Shown in pieces: positions 19,636 to 24,275 of a stretch of 64,000 nt of DNA (positions within the stretch are counted from its first letter, which is position 1; every line of letters starts with the position of its first letter). The notes below the pieces were generated by a model. The model did not search any database. It had not been told where the DNA came from and saw only the letters and a program-made list of their open reading frames with translations. The translations under genes and the position numbers were made by a program. The DNA is taken from the sequence record NC_100331.1; one strand, given 5' to 3'. The DNA is from Escherichia phage vB_EcoS_HASG4.

Positions 19636-20052
19636 TTAATCTACTGCATGTATAAATCTTTTCCTAACTAGATACATAGTTATTGGATAAATTGAGTACA
19701 TAAGTATCGGGGAGAAAAGGGTGAAATACGCTGTAACTCCCCCAGCTAACATCAAAGGTATTAATGCTAGAGTAAGGGCCATAAGAATCATACCGAATGA
19801 AACAGCCAAAGCTATGGATATAGGATTCTCTAGTTCCATCCATAACCAACAATATTTCGTATCTCTATGGCAATTGCATTTACAAACGCCGAATGAACCC
19901 ATAATTATATACTCTAGTCCGTGAATAACCTTTATTAATAAGCTATTTCGGGTAGTTAATGCAATGATAGTAAAGACTATCATTAAAACGAATACTACTA
20001 GACTTATTTTCCAGATACCTAGCAGCATCATAGTGAATAGTTCTGCAAACAT
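19636..20052 (-). CDS. integral membrane protein
   Basis: 138 aa, several TM segments. Confidence 0.5.
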   Translation of the reverse strand: MFAELFTMMLLGIWKISLVVFVLMIVFTIIALTTRNSLLIKVIHGLEYIIMGSFGVCKCNCHRDTKYCWLWMELENPISIALAVSFGMILMALTLALIPLMLAGGVTAYFTLFSPILMYSIYPITMYLVRKRFIHAVD

Positions 20053-20129
20053 GGCTTTCTCCTATCTTCAAAAATTATTAAAGCCCCCTTTGCCTAAAAA
20101 GGCGGGAATATTCCCGCCTCAGTTATTAA

Positions 20130-20543
20130 TTAAACTAGTTCGACATGACCGCCATCATAGGTACCACGTTTTATTTCATCGTGATAGTCTCCCGAAGCAT
20201 TCCAATCAGCACCAAAACGAAGTTTAATGCCTAGCTCTTTACCAGCTTGTTCAAAAGCCTTTTTAACTGCCCAAAATGCTTCTAAGTCATTCCAATCAAT
20301 TTTGCCATTAATATATGGAGCAAAATCAATAGCATCCCCAGTAATATGTTTGCTTTTACTAGGATCTTTTAGAAATGAAGTACCATTAGCAATATTCTGG
20401 GCACTTTGTGCTACTGTACGAATACCTTGCACGATTGTGAAATCATACGGAGATAGTTCTAAAGCCCTACGAGCTACTTTTTGTAGTTCGGGCTTAACGG
20501 TAGCTAATTGTTTTTCGCTATTTTTACCAAATTTAAAACTCAT
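20130..20543 (-). CDS. endolysin, M15 zinc peptidase (L-alanyl-D-glutamate peptidase type)
   Basis: 137 aa; H..D..H zinc motif (SKHITGDAID, DGGHVE); size matches T5 endolysin. Confidence 0.8.
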   Translation of the reverse strand: MSFKFGKNSEKQLATVKPELQKVARRALELSPYDFTIVQGIRTVAQSAQNIANGTSFLKDPSKSKHITGDAIDFAPYINGKIDWNDLEAFWAVKKAFEQAGKELGIKLRFGADWNASGDYHDEIKRGTYDGGHVELV

Positions 20544-21196
20544 ATTGACCTACCTAAAGACCTCTGTTGTGGGGAACAGAGCTTTGCTAAATATTCCTTG
20601 AACTGTTCAGAATCAGCTGTATCTACTGGATTATCTTTCCAAGCAATACCAATGTACCCAGCATAGATATTTTTTAGATTGAAGTATGGACAAGTGTATA
20701 TGTAATTAAAAGTAACGTTTTTAAACGCAGGTATATTTAACCCCATATATTTATTTACTCTTACACTTAAATCCGATGCGTAGTTAAAGCCCTCTAAATG
20801 ACGTCTGTATAATTCAGACGTTTTATTTACCGCTTTATCGGCCAAGTCAGCCCTATCTAATTGCGCATTACTTTCCCATGCAATAATATTGGAATAATCA
20901 TTGATAGCATCTGGTTTATACTTGACTACAAAAACAGCATCTGCACCCGTCTGAGAGAAGAGAACCATGCTCTTTTCCCTCGCCACATTAGGGAAGTTAT
21001 CTATCCTCTGGGTTTGTAAATCCTGTAAAACTGCAGACGTGGAAAAAGTCTTTAAGAATGACATCACTTCACTAGTATTACTAACAAATAAGAAAATAAT
21101 GACAGCAACTAAGATAGTTAGCAGACGTTTAAGAAGCGATGCTGGGTCTTTCGCTTCTTGGAGCAGTACTGTTAATAATTGTAAGAACTTTTCCAA
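20540..21196 (-). CDS. holin candidate
   Basis: ORF 20540-21250 trimmed to TTG after GAGGAGG RBS (218 aa); TM segment; immediately upstream of endolysin. Confidence 0.6.
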   Translation of the reverse strand: MEKFLQLLTVLLQEAKDPASLLKRLLTILVAVIIFLFVSNTSEVMSFLKTFSTSAVLQDLQTQRIDNFPNVAREKSMVLFSQTGADAVFVVKYKPDAINDYSNIIAWESNAQLDRADLADKAVNKTSELYRRHLEGFNYASDLSVRVNKYMGLNIPAFKNVTFNYIYTCPYFNLKNIYAGYIGIAWKDNPVDTADSEQFKEYLAKLCSPQQRSLGRSI

Positions 21197-21352
21197 TTTG
21201 TAACCTCCTCTAACCAGTACCATTATACTAATTTTGGAGGAAAATTTCAATGGGTTTTTAAATGTTACACTTGGAGCACAAAATTATGTCGTTGTCAAGA
21301 AGAATTTTAGATAAAAGAAAAGCCAGGGTACTTAACCCTGGCTTAAAATTAC

Positions 21353-21952
21353 TTACTCTTCGTTGTGCTCCTCGGATTGAGGTAACTGAGCTTTATTATA
21401 TTGCTCAGATCGATATTTTGCCAAGATTTCAATACGCTTATGAATTTCCTTGCTATCTAGATAGATATTTTTGTTGTCTTTTACCATCTCGTCGATTTCA
21501 TCTATTGAGAAGAACGGATAGTAGACATCTAGCATCATATCTTCTACGAACTTGTTGTAAGATTCATAGGCTTTCTTGATTTCTTGACCTTTCTCACAGA
21601 ACCCACCAGAGAACGTGTGTCCCATTAGCGTAGCATGTGGATGTACTACCCATCCATGACAAGATAGGAAAATTGTGCAGTAAGCAGAAGCACTAGGACC
21701 AATCAGGTGTCCTATAACTGTTCCACGGCAATTAGCAATTAAGTTAGATAACTGTGCGGCAGTATCAACATAACCACCAGGGCCATTAATCATCAGATTA
21801 ATTTCGTCGTCCTCATTTGCCTGCATAAGTACCATTGATAGATCACGGTATTCATCCGGTGGACCGAGTTCTTCATCAAAGAAAAAGGTATACTCGTTAG
21901 ATTGGCGAATGGAGTGGAACAGGTTAGTCTTTTCTTCTTTTTTATTAGTCAT
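21353..21952 (-). CDS. ClpP-like serine protease
   Basis: 199 aa; INGPGG and GPSASA motifs resembling ClpP. Confidence 0.6.
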   Translation of the reverse strand: MTNKKEEKTNLFHSIRQSNEYTFFFDEELGPPDEYRDLSMVLMQANEDDEINLMINGPGGYVDTAAQLSNLIANCRGTVIGHLIGPSASAYCTIFLSCHGWVVHPHATLMGHTFSGGFCEKGQEIKKAYESYNKFVEDMMLDVYYPFFSIDEIDEMVKDNKNIYLDSKEIHKRIEILAKYRSEQYNKAQLPQSEEHNEE

Positions 21953-21964
21953 AGCGATCCTTGA

Positions 21965-22717
21965 TTATCCAACTAGTGGTTCTAGCTCTAAGTCACAGAA
22001 GTTATACACTTCTAGTTTAAGGTTATTGATACCATCGAATTTATTAACTAATTCGTGAGTAATATATTTTGCAGGAATACCACTTTCAGATGGATGATCT
22101 GATTTAATAGTGAACTTCTGCTCAGCGGGCACTACATTTATTAGTAAAGAATCCATATCTAAATGGTTTGTTTCTCTGAGTAACTCTCCTTCATTGGGGA
22201 ATCTCACATCTGTTATTACGGCGACATCTGGGTCGTCTTTAGCGATGGATTGCTCCAGAATTATGAGCCAAATGCGTTCATGTACCAGCTGCCTTCCTAG
22301 CTCTGTTCCTACGAGCTGTAACATTTTTCTCGGAGAAATAAATAAACTATAAAGTCCGTCTTCTTTATTCTCTGAGATAAGTTGTTGAGGATTAAGATAT
22401 TTTCCCTCAAAAATCGGCCAAACGTACGAGAAGTCTTCAAACTTATCGATACCGTATTTAAACCATACGTCTCTAGCTCGCTCCAATTGAGATTGTGTGA
22501 CCGTAAACCATTGGTCAATCTCTTTCCCCCTGCGCTCTCCTAGAAACTCTGGAGTTACACCGAGGATTACAGATGCAAGTTCATAAACGGGCTTGGCAAA
22601 ACTGTAACGACGTGGTAAACACGTTGGATACGTGTCGTTACACCAATCGATAATTAATTTTGCAACGGTATCTTTTCCCGAACCAGCTTCACCATGCAGA
22701 CCTACTAATACTGACAT
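21965..22717 (-). CDS. deoxynucleoside monophosphate kinase
   Basis: 250 aa; P-loop GEAGSGKDT at N-terminus. Confidence 0.7.
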   Translation of the reverse strand: MSVLVGLHGEAGSGKDTVAKLIIDWCNDTYPTCLPRRYSFAKPVYELASVILGVTPEFLGERRGKEIDQWFTVTQSQLERARDVWFKYGIDKFEDFSYVWPIFEGKYLNPQQLISENKEDGLYSLFISPRKMLQLVGTELGRQLVHERIWLIILEQSIAKDDPDVAVITDVRFPNEGELLRETNHLDMDSLLINVVPAEQKFTIKSDHPSESGIPAKYITHELVNKFDGINNLKLEVYNFCDLELEPLVG

Positions 22718-23070
22718 TAATCTTTCCTATTGTTAATGGGTGGATAGTAAACTAAGCAACGTTTTTCTTGTAAATCTTGGCGATAGAAGCAAACCATACT
22801 AGTCAGTCGTGAGATATATGAATATTCTGCCTCGCGGCATTTTGCTAACATATTCCAATCTTTATATGGTACAACAACTACTACGCCATCTTCGCCATTT
22901 GTAGCTAATTTCTTTTCGAACTTAAAGTCAAAGCTACAAGGTTGAAGCCCTTTAGGCCAATCTACGTGGGCTGTTGGTAGCTCATGTGTAGGTTCTGGCT
23001 TTATTTCTTGTGCACAGCCTGTGATTGTGATTGCGGCTGCGAGCAGTATTCCAAGTTTCCAGTTAAACAT
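22717..23070 (-). CDS. lipoprotein (o-spanin-like)
   Basis: 117 aa; signal peptide with lipobox ITGC; start embedded in upstream gene. Confidence 0.55.
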   Translation of the reverse strand: MFNWKLGILLAAAITITGCAQEIKPEPTHELPTAHVDWPKGLQPCSFDFKFEKKLATNGEDGVVVVVPYKDWNMLAKCREAEYSYISRLTSMVCFYRQDLQEKRCLVYYPPINNRKD

Positions 23071-23444
23071 GCTAATCTTTCCTCGAACTCCTTACTCTGC
23101 TTTTTAGCAATTAATGTAACCAATCCAGGCTTTGCAGCTATAATATCTTGACGACTAAGAGCTTTATCAAGCTGGGAGATCTTCTTATCAAGATCTTGTT
23201 GGGAAATATTATGGAAAGTGAAATATTGATTCATACGTGTTTCACGTTGTTCACTTTCAACTTTAATCTTGTTTAAGGAAGTTTCTAGAGTAGAGATCTT
23301 TTTAGTAGCTACTGCAAGATCACCTGATAGAGTCTCAACCTTATTAACTAAGTGATAAGCACCGAATCCGATGCCTATCGCTAGACCTGCTCCCAGGATA
23401 TACCATTTACCTTGCCATAGAGAACTAATAAAGTTTTTTATCAT
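23001..23444 (-). CDS. i-spanin-like membrane protein
   Basis: 147 aa; N-terminal TM then coiled-coil; overlaps lipoprotein gene by 70 nt out of frame. Confidence 0.55.
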   Translation of the reverse strand: MIKNFISSLWQGKWYILGAGLAIGIGFGAYHLVNKVETLSGDLAVATKKISTLETSLNKIKVESEQRETRMNQYFTFHNISQQDLDKKISQLDKALSRQDIIAAKPGLVTLIAKKQSKEFEERLACLTGNLEYCSQPQSQSQAVHKK

Positions 23445-24121
23445 CTTTTCATATTCCTGAATGACGTAACCGTATCAAATCCATGTGCTGCTAGGCGGTC
23501 TTTATCTGATACAGTAATCATATCAGGCTCACCAGTTCCTAATACACCGAAGATATACTGTTCGAGAACTTGGTGCAAACGGTATAAGTTACTTTCAATT
23601 TCCTGCCACGGAATACCTGATAGGTGTAGACGCGGATTAGTTATAACCTTGAAGTATTTATTGTTATCTTTATCATTTGGAACTAATGAATCTAGAACTA
23701 CTAATGGTACTCTTAGCTCAGATAAGGCTTCTTTAGCTTTCGGGGTAACTTCTTCTTGCCACGATAAGATAGACTCTTTTGGCTTCCCTCTATTTATGTC
23801 TAGCAAAGAAAACCCTGTTGACCACCCATTCTCCTCTAAAATTTCTAACGCCTCGTCCAGGCTGAAGGTTTTTACTTGGGTATCTAGCACGTCAATGTGG
23901 TATAACCAGTAAATCTCTCCGGCTAGGAAGAAAGGCAAAATTTTAAAGTAGCCAATCTTTCCCTCAATACGAGCAATCCTACGTTCTTGCATGATCATAT
24001 AGTTGCCATCATCTGGGGCTTTTATTGTTAGCTCTTCAGTTTTACGTTCCCAAACACGATCTGCATCGAATAAACTGTTCTGCAAATCATACACATCTGC
24101 AAATTTAGAAATGATTCTCAT
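23441..24121 (-). CDS. hypothetical protein
   Basis: 226 aa; promoter cassette upstream. Confidence 0.55.
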   Translation of the reverse strand: MRIISKFADVYDLQNSLFDADRVWERKTEELTIKAPDDGNYMIMQERRIARIEGKIGYFKILPFFLAGEIYWLYHIDVLDTQVKTFSLDEALEILEENGWSTGFSLLDINRGKPKESILSWQEEVTPKAKEALSELRVPLVVLDSLVPNDKDNNKYFKVITNPRLHLSGIPWQEIESNLYRLHQVLEQYIFGVLGTGEPDMITVSDKDRLAAHGFDTVTSFRNMKR

Positions 24122-24275
24122 ATTTAATCCTCTTGCCTCAATCTATGAATATATTATACAAAAGTTTGGGCATCTATGCAACTAAAATTTTATTACAAAA
24201 ATAGCCCAGTCGCAAAAGTGCAGGCTGGGCTTTGTCATTATTTGCTTTTGCTAGTAAGTTGACTTAGTGTCAATC

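What the first reader, a model, noticed from the sequence alone, without database searches (positions are those of the whole stretch)
22717..23444. Embedded spanin-like gene pair separated from holin and endolysin
A 147-aa type-II membrane coiled-coil protein (23001-23444) overlaps out of frame with a 117-aa lipoprotein carrying an ITGC lipobox (22717-23070), the classic Rz/Rz1 arrangement. The pair is separated from the holin/endolysin genes by dNMP kinase and a ClpP-like gene. The lipoprotein is long for an o-spanin, so it could instead be an exclusion lipoprotein.
Basis: partly seen in the sequence, partly recalled or inferred. Interest (0 to 1): 0.5.

Follow-up and report, generated by a model that had tools for sequence, protein, structure and literature searches.

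The report
Phage T5 spanin gene pair
These two overlapping genes are the already catalogued inner- and outer-membrane spanins of a T5-like coliphage, which break the host's outer membrane in the last step of lysis; the finding is correct but ordinary.

Summary
A 147-aa ORF (23001-23444, minus strand) has an N-terminal membrane helix and a heptad-rich periplasmic part. It overlaps by 70 nt, out of frame, a 117-aa ORF (22717-23070, minus strand) with an ITGC lipobox (Cys19, Ala at +2). The window is 100% identical to Escherichia phage vB_EcoS_EASG3, a Tequintavirus. The lipoprotein is 100% identical to phage T5 T5p043, and the membrane protein is 86% identical to T5p044. Kongari et al. [quoted passage not shown] Both proteins hit PHROGs 739 and 812 ("Rz-like spanin"), as do T4 PseT.3 and PseT.2, which were shown to complement lambda Rz/Rz1. 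The two PseT.2 cysteines essential for lysis align with invariant C94 and C105 here. The pair shows no sequence similarity to lambda Rz/Rz1 or to the T5 exclusion lipoprotein Llp. The architecture is overlapped, not embedded. The order spanins, dNMP kinase, Clp protease, terminator, holin, endolysin is conserved across Demerecviridae. Verdict: already known, low interest. Side points: the matching GenBank record omits the o-spanin gene, and I found no direct lysis experiment on the T5 pair.

The parts
23001..23444 (-). i-spanin gene (147 aa; homologue of T5 T5p044 and T4 PseT.3). Type II inner-membrane protein with a periplasmic coiled-coil region, a KPGL hinge and a C-terminal CX7C motif.
   Evidence: ORF confirmed. 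PHROG 739 'Rz-like spanin', E 6e-37. 85.7% identical to T5p044. BLASTP against T4 PseT.3, E 4e-5. Annotated i-spanin or Rz-like spanin in relatives.
23349..23405 (-). Codons 14-32 of the i-spanin: the single N-terminal transmembrane helix (WYILGAGLAIGIGFGAYHL).
   Evidence: Kyte-Doolittle maximum 1.55 at residue 15. Two Lys and no acidic residue before it. An equivalent helix is present in the T5, Klebsiella and Proteus phage homologues.
23043..23069 (-). Codons 126-134 of the i-spanin: conserved C-L-T-G-N-x-x-x-C motif. It is encoded inside the overlap and is absent from T4 PseT.3.
   Evidence: Present in T5, KEY, K7_rec9 and Stubb, and in the split-pair variant. PseT.3 has no cysteine.
22717..23070 (-). 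o-spanin gene (117-aa precursor, 99-aa mature outer-membrane lipoprotein; equals T5 T5p043, homologue of T4 PseT.2).
   Evidence: ORF confirmed. PHROG 812 'Rz-like spanin', E 3.5e-30. 100% identical to T5. BLASTP against PseT.2, E 4e-8. AF2 model (pLDDT 83) matches phage o-spanins and PseT.2 in BFVD.
23014..23070 (-). Signal peptide of the o-spanin (codons 1-18) with lipobox ITGC (codons 16-19, 23014-23025). Cys19 is the lipidated first residue of the mature protein and is followed by Ala.
   Evidence: 22 of 24 family members satisfy a PROSITE PS51257-type rule; the other two are N-terminally truncated. None has Asp at +2.
23001..23070 (-). 70-nt dual-coding overlap: the i-spanin C-terminus in one frame and the o-spanin signal peptide in the other.
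   Evidence: Reduced diversity without a third-position excess. 'The T5 spanins overlap by 70 bp' (PMC6139136).
22756..22791 (-). Codons 94-105 of the o-spanin: C-F-Y-R-x-D-L-x-E-x-R-C motif. Its two cysteines align with T4 PseT.2 C87 and C98.
   Evidence: Invariant in alignment A1 and at least 90% conserved in A3. C87 and C98 are essential for lysis in T4 (PMC6139136). Alignment.
23077..23084 (-). Shine-Dalgarno-like GAGGAAAG, 6 nt upstream of the o-spanin ATG, inside the i-spanin coding sequence.
   Evidence: Read from the sequence.
24187..24215 (-). Promoter-like site upstream of the 226-aa ORF that precedes the i-spanin; probable start of the transcription unit holding the spanins.
   Evidence: Consensus scan, 9 of 12 matches. 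T5 record annotates a putative promoter at the equivalent place. This is a pattern match only.
21320..21344 (-). Intrinsic-terminator-like hairpin after the Clp protease gene. It separates the spanin-dnk-clp unit from the holin-endolysin unit.
   Evidence: 10-bp stem, 6 G-C pairs, T run. Annotated as a terminator in MK373799.
20130..21196 (-). Partner lysis genes: T4 T-type holin (20540-21196) and M15 L-alanyl-D-glutamate peptidase endolysin (20130-20543), with their own promoter-like site at 21222-21250.
   Evidence: PF11031, E 3e-112; PF13539; PHROG 860 and 465. Annotation. Promoter scan.

Best explanation
The two genes encode the two-component spanin of a T5-like phage (Tequintavirus). The 147-aa protein is anchored in the inner membrane by one N-terminal helix (N-in, C-out) and extends a largely helical, coiled-coil-prone domain into the periplasm. 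The 117-aa precursor is processed at the ITGC lipobox, lipidated on Cys19 and sent to the inner leaflet of the outer membrane, because it lacks the Asp(+2) retention signal. The C-terminal parts of the two proteins bind each other, forming a bridge across the periplasm that is caged by the peptidoglycan mesh. When the T-type holin fires and the M15 peptidase endolysin removes the peptidoglycan, the complexes are freed and destroy the outer membrane, most probably by fusing it with the inner membrane. That completes lysis. Disulfide-linked o-spanin dimers through C94 and C105 are expected to be required, as for the homologous cysteines of T4 PseT.2. What is shown here: the gene structure, the targeting signals, identity to the T5 genes, homology to the T4 spanins, and conservation and synteny. 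What is inferred from lambda and T4 work: complex formation, disulfide chemistry, membrane fusion and the lysis phenotype.
For: Identity. The window is 100% identical to a Tequintavirus genome. The o-spanin is 100% and the i-spanin 86% identical to T5 T5p043 and T5p044.

Prior cataloguing. The T5 i- and o-spanin families, overlapped with a 70-bp overlap, are listed in PMC6139136. The T5-like lysis cassette with inner- and outer-membrane spanins is described in PMC4342426. Relatives are annotated i-spanin and o-spanin.

Family assignment. PHROG 739 (E 6e-37) and 812 (E 3.5e-30). T4 PseT.3 and PseT.2 hit the same two PHROGs, with BLASTP E 4e-5 and 4e-8. PseT.3/PseT.2 complement a lambda Rz-am Rz1-am lysogen, and PseT.2 C87 and C98 are essential. 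These align with invariant C94 and C105.

Signals. Lipobox rule met, no Asp at +2, single N-terminal TMD. Heptad pattern in residues 34-61 is exceeded by 0 of 500 shuffles.

Structure. AF2 model of the o-spanin (pLDDT 83) matches predicted structures of phage o-spanins, 'Rz1' and PseT.2.

Conservation. The pair and its synteny (pair-dnk-clp-holin-endolysin) are kept in Erwinia, Klebsiella and Proteus Demerecviridae at 25-47% identity. The overlap shows a dual-coding signature.
Against: I found no direct experiment on the T5 pair (complementation, knockout or lipid labelling) in the searchable literature, so function rests on homology to T4 and on topology. The genes sit in an early-region operon with nucleotide-metabolism genes, not in a late lysis cassette. 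That is also true of the T4 spanins (legend of Fig. 8 of the paper). Promoter and terminator calls are consensus matches only, and the number of promoter-like sites is no higher than in shuffled sequence. The pair has extra conserved cysteines that the T4 pair lacks (CX7C in the i-spanin, C45 and C78 in the o-spanin), so details of the disulfide pathway may differ.
Confidence: 0.93

Rival explanations
1. The 117-aa lipoprotein is a superinfection-exclusion or receptor-blocking lipoprotein like T5 Llp or phi80/N15 Cor, and only happens to overlap a membrane protein gene.
For: It is a lipoprotein of a T5-like phage, is expressed from the early region, and is longer than lambda Rz1. T5 does make an exclusion lipoprotein.
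Against: T5 Llp is a different 77-aa protein encoded next to the receptor-binding protein gene oad, about 80 kb away. BLASTP gives no alignment between the two at E <= 100. Llp falls in PHROG 1119 (Cor exclusion) while this protein falls in PHROG 812 (spanin) with T4 PseT.2. The protein always occurs with its i-spanin partner. The fold search finds o-spanins, and no PDB chain reached E <= 0.001, so none of any Llp structures held there matched.
Confidence: 0.02
2. The pair forms an envelope-spanning complex with a main role other than lysis, for example an early-infection function tied to its early-operon position. The resemblance to spanins would then be topological only.
For: The genes are co-transcribed with dnk and clp, apart from holin and endolysin. 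No direct lysis phenotype is reported for T5.
Against: Sequence homology, not only topology, links both proteins to the experimentally validated T4 spanins, including the cysteines essential for lysis. The T4 spanin genes are also remote from t and e. According to the spanin model in PMC6139136, spanins accumulate harmlessly until the peptidoglycan is removed, so early expression is compatible with a lysis role.
Confidence: 0.04
3. The 117-aa ORF is a chance open frame and not a gene, as its absence from the GenBank annotation of the identical genome might suggest.
For: MK373799 annotates no CDS there.
Against: The ORF is intact in every relative examined, down to 25% identity, with lipobox and cysteines kept. 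Its substitution pattern shows purifying selection (428 synonymous against 136 non-synonymous). HMM match E 3.5e-30. It has a Shine-Dalgarno-like site and a stop-start overlap with dnk. Without it, 283 nt between annotated genes would be non-coding.
Confidence: 0.01

Closest known systems
[quoted passage not shown] 2018, SpaninDataBase)
   Same: Same genes. The o-spanin is 100% identical and the i-spanin 86% identical. Same 70-nt overlap, same frame relation, same neighbours (dnk, clp, holin, endolysin).
   Different: T5 has an HNH endonuclease gene (T5p045) directly upstream of the i-spanin; it is missing here. The i-spanin N-terminus and mid coiled-coil are diverged (56-77% nt identity in places), whereas the C-terminal third, the overlap and the 5' half of the o-spanin gene are 98-100% identical and its 3' half 92-96%.
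Phage T4 PseT.3 / PseT.2 two-component spanin
   Same: Remote homologues: same PHROGs 739 and 812, BLASTP E 4e-5 and 4e-8. Shared KPGL hinge in the i-spanin. Shared W-P, P-Y/F and C-x-Y-R-x-x-L-x-E-x-x-C motifs in the o-spanin. The two cysteines essential in T4 are conserved. Both pairs are unlinked from the T-type holin's own cassette.
   Different: The T4 genes count as 'separated' (they abut with a 4-nt overlap), not overlapped by 70 nt. PseT.3 has no cysteine and lacks the C-terminal CX7C extension. PseT.2 lacks the C45/C78 pair. Identity is only 24-29%.
Lambda Rz / Rz1
   Same: Same functional class and topology: a type II inner-membrane protein with a helical periplasmic domain, plus an outer-membrane lipoprotein. 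The lipoprotein gene starts inside the other gene in another frame. Both have periplasmic cysteines.
   Different: No detectable sequence similarity (E 0.97 and 10). Rz1 is fully embedded and in the other relative frame (offset mod 3 = 1 against 2). Rz1 is 40 aa when mature, proline-rich and unstructured, whereas this o-spanin has a 99-aa mature form with a predicted hairpin-plus-helix domain. The lambda genes sit directly after S and R.
T5 Llp / Cor-type exclusion lipoproteins
   Same: Small phage-encoded outer-membrane lipoproteins.
   Different: No sequence similarity, a different PHROG (1119), a different genomic place (next to the receptor-binding protein gene) and no membrane-protein partner.

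Membership tests
Two-component spanin (functional class, criteria of Summer 2007 / Kongari 2018) | i-spanin: one N-terminal transmembrane domain, with the rest periplasmic and predicted helical or coiled-coil | tested here: met
   Hydrophobic helix at residues 14-32. Lys residues on the N-terminal side. Heptad pattern beyond all 500 shuffles. Crude in-house measures, not TMHMM or COILS.
Two-component spanin (functional class, criteria of Summer 2007 / Kongari 2018) | o-spanin: signal peptidase II signal with a lipobox and no inner-membrane retention residue (Asp) at +2 | tested here: met
   ITGC, Cys19, Ala at +2. A PS51257-type rule (recalled from memory, coded by me) is satisfied. 22 of 24 family members pass, and the other two are truncated. 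LipoP and SignalP were not available.
Two-component spanin (functional class, criteria of Summer 2007 / Kongari 2018) | The two genes are adjacent, overlapped or embedded, in a phage of a Gram-negative host that also has a holin and an endolysin | tested here: met
   70-nt overlap. Escherichia Tequintavirus. Holin and endolysin lie 1.5 kb downstream.
Two-component spanin (functional class, criteria of Summer 2007 / Kongari 2018) | Periplasmic cysteines near the C-terminal interaction region | tested here: met
   i-spanin C126 and C134. o-spanin C45, C78, C94 and C105. Conserved.
Two-component spanin (functional class, criteria of Summer 2007 / Kongari 2018) | Required for outer-membrane disruption; complements a lambda Rz/Rz1 defect | not testable with these tools
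   Needs an experiment. None was found for T5 in the searchable literature. It has been shown for the T4 homologues.
T5 spanin families (Kongari 2018: at least 40% identity over at least 40% of the periplasmic domain) | Sequence identity to T5 i- and o-spanin above the family threshold | tested here: met
   86% and 100% over full length. DT57C, a listed member, is 95% identical at DNA level.
T4 PseT.3/PseT.2-type spanins (PHROG 739 / 812) | Significant match to the family profiles that contain the T4 proteins | tested here: met
   E 6e-37 and 3.5e-30 for the window proteins. E 1.3e-37 and 5e-42 for PseT.3 and PseT.2.
T4 PseT.3/PseT.2-type spanins (PHROG 739 / 812) | The two C-terminal o-spanin cysteines shown to be essential in T4 (C87, C98) | tested here: met
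   They align with C94 and C105, which are invariant in A1 and at least 90% conserved in A3.
Lambda Rz/Rz1 family | Sequence homology to Rz and Rz1 | tested here: not met
   BLASTP E 10 and 0.97.
Lambda Rz/Rz1 family | o-spanin gene wholly embedded in the i-spanin gene | tested here: not met
   Only 70 of 354 nt lie inside the i-spanin gene. Lambda Rz1 is fully inside Rz.
Llp / Cor exclusion lipoproteins | Sequence homology to Llp/Cor (PHROG 1119) | tested here: not met
   No BLASTP alignment with T5 Llp. The window protein does not hit PHROG 1119.
Llp / Cor exclusion lipoproteins | Gene next to the receptor-binding protein gene | tested here: not met
   In T5, llp is next to oad at 102 kb. 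This gene lies between an unknown ORF and dnk at 23 kb.

The most novel reading that the evidence does not exclude
The T5-type spanin may be a mechanistic variant of the T4 type. It adds a conserved CX7C motif at the i-spanin C-terminus, encoded within the overlap but kept even where the genes are split. It also adds a second cysteine pair (C45/C78) in the o-spanin. These could support a different disulfide scheme, for example a stapled i-spanin tip or a heterotypic i-o disulfide, instead of the o-spanin-only homodimer linkage shown for T4. Nothing here tests this; it rests on conservation alone.
Probability: 0.15. Interest if true: 0.3.

Novelty: already known. Interest (0 to 1): 0.08.

Why it matters
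It matters little beyond correct annotation. The pair completes the lysis gene set of this T5-like phage: T-type holin, M15 peptidase endolysin and two-component spanin. The GenBank record identical to the window leaves the o-spanin unannotated and calls the i-spanin hypothetical, and several relatives carry truncated o-spanin calls. A correct call is useful for phage-therapy genome curation. The clear homology between the T5 and T4 spanins also allows T4 mutational data, such as the essential cysteines, to be transferred to T5-like phages. That homology is captured by PHROGs but split into separate families in the 2018 spanin census.

Tried and rejected
1. Pfam-A and NCBIfam scans gave nothing meaningful for either protein. 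The big protein collection carries a precomputed tag PF26831 for the o-spanin homologues, but that model is not in the local Pfam copy, so I could not read what it is.

2. Sequence search of the PDB found no relatives for either protein. Foldseek against the PDB gave no hit with E <= 0.001, so there is no solved structure to lean on.

3. The first AF2 run, with a 6-sequence alignment, gave pLDDT 47 and was discarded. A 24-sequence alignment gave pLDDT 83.

4. The search for related loci with the diverse alignment A1 failed because no conserved stretch was long enough. The single-protein scan returned only close T5-like loci.

5. The word-indexed homologue search returned only 5 clusters. The exhaustive search found 21 representative clusters (at 50% identity) at E <= 0.001 among 1.84 billion proteins, so the family has few sequence-detectable relatives.

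6. I first recalled lambda Rz/Rz1 coordinates wrongly. The record shows offset 220 (mod 3 = 1), so the relative frame differs from the one here.

7. The Llp-type exclusion lipoprotein reading was rejected.

8. The chance-ORF reading was rejected.

9. Literature searches for a direct T5 spanin experiment found none. Summer et al. 2007 is not in the searchable library and was not read.
Full report
**What is there**

Two ORFs lie on the minus strand at exactly the reported coordinates.
- ORF 23001-23444 encodes 147 aa. It has one hydrophobic helix at residues 14-32 (WYILGAGLAIGIGFGAYHL), preceded by two lysines.
  - Residues 34-61 show a strong heptad pattern that none of 500 shuffles reaches.
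  - A KPGL hinge follows near residue 105, then a C-terminal C-L-T-G-N-L-E-Y-C motif.
- ORF 22717-23070 encodes 117 aa and begins MFNWKLGILLAAAITITGC-A. This is a basic residue, a hydrophobic core and the lipobox ITGC, with Cys19 followed by Ala. The mature lipoprotein would therefore be 99 aa and would be sorted to the outer membrane.
- The genes share 70 nt (23001-23070). The second gene starts 374 nt into the first, so it is out of frame (374 mod 3 = 2).
- A GAGGAAAG Shine-Dalgarno-like element lies 6 nt before the second ATG.
- The first ATG overlaps the upstream stop (ATGA). The second gene's stop overlaps the start of the dNMP kinase gene (TAATG).

**Where the window comes from**

Region 20000-24200 is 100% identical to Escherichia phage vB_EcoS_EASG3 (MK373799, Demerecviridae, Tequintavirus). 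It is 93-98% identical to many T5-like Escherichia and Salmonella phages.
- The lipoprotein is 100% identical to T5 T5p043 (orf14c). The membrane protein is 85.7% identical to T5p044.
- Sister records annotate the two genes as o-spanin and i-spanin, or as 'Rz-like spanin'.
- MK373799 itself calls the membrane protein hypothetical and has no CDS at all for the lipoprotein.

**Is it real rather than chance?**

I analysed 28 IMG/VR loci and 6 GenBank loci (two of the GenBank loci).
- Both ORFs are intact in all of them.
- 26 have the same 70-nt overlap and the same frame relation.
- Three more distant Demerecviridae have overlaps of 40, 88 and 34 nt in the same relative frame: Erwinia phage KEY, Klebsiella phage K7_rec9 and Proteus phage Stubb, at 25-47% o-spanin identity.
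- Three IMG/VR loci have the pair split by 666 nt. This matches the Shivani/phiR201 arrangement, where a homing endonuclease gene lies between the two spanin genes.

The substitution pattern fits two real genes. These figures come from 26 distinct sequences of the 728-nt unit.
- Nucleotide diversity is 0.102 in the i-only part, 0.096 in the o-only part and 0.047 in the overlap.
- The overlap lacks the third-position excess seen in each single-coding part, which is what dual coding predicts.
- Outside the overlap, the o-spanin shows 428 synonymous against 136 non-synonymous codon differences.

**What it is**

- Both proteins match PHROG profiles annotated 'Rz-like spanin': 739 for the membrane protein (E 6e-37) and 812 for the lipoprotein (E 3.5e-30).
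- Kongari et al. 2018 (PMC6139136) list a T5 i-spanin family and a T5 o-spanin family under 'overlapped'. Members include T5, EPS7, SPC35, AKFV33, FFH1, DT57C, Stitch, My1, and the separated variants Shivani and phiR201. The paper states that 'the T5 spanins overlap by 70 bp'.
- The Shivani genome announcement also describes a T5-like lysis cassette with inner- and outer-membrane spanins. The Sugarland and OSYSP papers say the same for their phages.

The finding is therefore already in the literature and in databases.

**Link to experimentally tested spanins**

A weak tblastn hit fell in a T4-like Citrobacter phage, on two genes between alc and pseT that were annotated with PHROGs 739 and 812. 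That led me to T4 itself.
- T4 PseT.3 and PseT.2 hit the same two PHROGs (E 1.3e-37 and 5e-42).
- They align with the window proteins at BLASTP E 4e-5 and 4e-8.
- Shared motifs are KPGL in the i-spanin, and H-x-x-W-P, P-Y/F and C-x-Y-R-x-x-L-x-E-x-x-C in the o-spanin.
- Kongari et al. showed that pseT.3 and pseT.2 complement a lambda Rz-am Rz1-am lysogen. They also showed that PseT.2 C87 and C98 are both essential.
- These two cysteines align with C94 and C105 of the window protein. Both are invariant in a 9-sequence alignment spanning T5-like, Klebsiella, Proteus and T4-like phages. Both are at least 90% conserved in a 24-sequence alignment of representative clusters.
- There is no detectable similarity to lambda Rz or Rz1.

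So this is a homologue of the T4 spanins and only an analogue of the lambda ones.

**Is the lipoprotein too long, and could it be an exclusion lipoprotein?**

The family is narrow. Only 21 representative clusters (at 50% identity) reach E <= 0.001 among 1.84 billion proteins, and they are 94-124 aa long.
- 22 of the 24 aligned members satisfy a lipoprotein rule. The other two are N-terminally truncated. None has Asp at +2.
- An AlphaFold2 model built on this alignment has mean pLDDT 83. It shows an extended tether (residues 20-48), a beta-hairpin (50-66) and a long helix (69-96).
- Foldseek finds nothing significant in the PDB.
- In BFVD it finds predicted structures named 'outer membrane lipoprotein o-spanin', 'outer membrane lipoprotein Rz1' (a Shigella T4-like phage), 'PseT.2' and 'O-spanin'.
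- T5's real exclusion lipoprotein, Llp, is a 77-aa protein next to the receptor-binding protein gene, about 80 kb away in T5. It has no alignable similarity to the window protein. It belongs to PHROG 1119, 'Cor superinfection exclusion protein'.

The exclusion reading is rejected. The length is simply typical of the T5/T4-type o-spanin, which has a small folded domain, unlike the 40-aa proline-rich Rz1.

**Genomic context and expression**

The order is: 226-aa unknown ORF, i-spanin, o-spanin, dNMP kinase, ClpP-like protease, terminator hairpin (21320-21344), promoter-like site (21222-21250), T-type holin, M15 peptidase endolysin.
- This order is conserved in T5, KEY, K7_rec9 and Stubb.
- The spanins thus appear to be in a transcription unit separate from holin and endolysin. 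The T5 record places putative promoters at the equivalent positions.
- The promoter scan by itself is not significant: 13 sites against 13.7 expected.
- Separation of spanin genes from the holin and endolysin genes is also the T4 situation. It is compatible with the spanin model, in which complexes accumulate harmlessly until the peptidoglycan is degraded.

**Mechanism (inferred)**

1. The i-spanin is anchored N-in, C-out in the inner membrane.
2. The o-spanin is lipidated at Cys19 and moved by Lol to the outer membrane.
3. The C-terminal regions of the two proteins bind across the periplasm, with o-spanin dimers linked through C94 and C105.
4. After the holin triggers and the endolysin acts, the freed complexes fuse or disrupt the two membranes.

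The targeting signals, the homology and the conservation are shown here. Complex formation, disulfides, fusion and the phenotype are inferred from lambda and T4 work.

**Differences worth noting**

- The architecture is overlapped, not embedded.
- The relative frame differs from lambda's (offset mod 3 = 2 here, against 1 in lambda).
- The T5-type i-spanin has a conserved C-terminal CX7C that T4 PseT.3 lacks. It is kept even in the split variants, whose tails differ after the motif.
- The o-spanin has an additional conserved pair, C45 and C78, that is absent from T4-likes.

These give a small chance of a variant disulfide scheme. That is the only mildly novel angle.

**Verdict**

The feature is already known and of low interest. 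The practical outcome is an annotation fix for MK373799 and a few relatives.

Noticed in passing
window 22717-23070 (MK373799 22678-23031): The GenBank record that is 100% identical to the window has no CDS for the o-spanin: there is a 283-nt unannotated gap between EASG3_00044 and EASG3_00045. It also labels the i-spanin 'hypothetical protein'.
   Followed up: yes
L006:3501-3830 (PQ569735) and L007:3501-3812 (NC_048086, Proteus phage Stubb): The o-spanin start is mis-called in these relatives. One record has a 51-aa fragment. The other has a 95-aa product whose note says the lipobox was not picked up. The full ORFs start upstream and carry ASGC and LVGC lipoboxes.
   Followed up: yes
window 22717-23444 compared with L004:2627-3354 (T5): Mosaic identity to T5 within the pair. 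The first 52 nt of the i-spanin are 56% identical and nt 157-260 are 71-77% identical. Nt 313-468 (C-terminal third of the i-spanin, the overlap and the o-spanin signal) are 100% identical. This suggests recombination inside the i-spanin gene, or faster change of its membrane-proximal coil, while the part facing the o-spanin stays fixed.
   Followed up: partly
L022, L023, L025 (IMG/VR); L002:3945-4442 and L004:2130-2627: Homing endonuclease traffic around the pair. Three IMG/VR loci have 666 nt inserted between the i- and o-spanin genes, as in Shivani/phiR201. T5 and GEC_vB_N5 have an HNH endonuclease gene directly upstream of the i-spanin; it is absent from the window.
   Followed up: partly
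window about 22520-22550 (inside dnk, 21965-22717): The sequence around the site annotated in T5 as a 'major DNA single-chain interruption' (nick) is conserved exactly in the window (GGAGAGCGCAGGGGGAAAGAG on the gene strand).
   Followed up: no
window 20540-21250: The mechanical ORF list extends the holin to a TTG at 21250 (236 aa). Records annotate the ATG at 21196 (218 aa). The promoter-like site at 21222-21250 lies inside the extension, which favours the ATG start. The holin is a T4 T-type (PF11031, E 3e-112), so both holin and spanins of this phage are T4-type, whereas the endolysin is an M15 peptidase.
   Followed up: partly
window 19636-20052 (minus strand): A 138-aa ORF rich in hydrophobic stretches (equivalent to T5p038, 'hypothetical membrane protein') lies just downstream of the endolysin, after a terminator. 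Its position next to a T-type holin cassette raises the question of a lysis-regulatory role. This was not examined.
   Followed up: no
window 23441-24121 (minus strand): The 226-aa ORF that is translationally coupled to the i-spanin (ATGA overlap) has no Pfam or NCBIfam match. It hits only PHROG 4243 (unknown function). It keeps this position in T5, KEY and K7_rec9.
   Followed up: no
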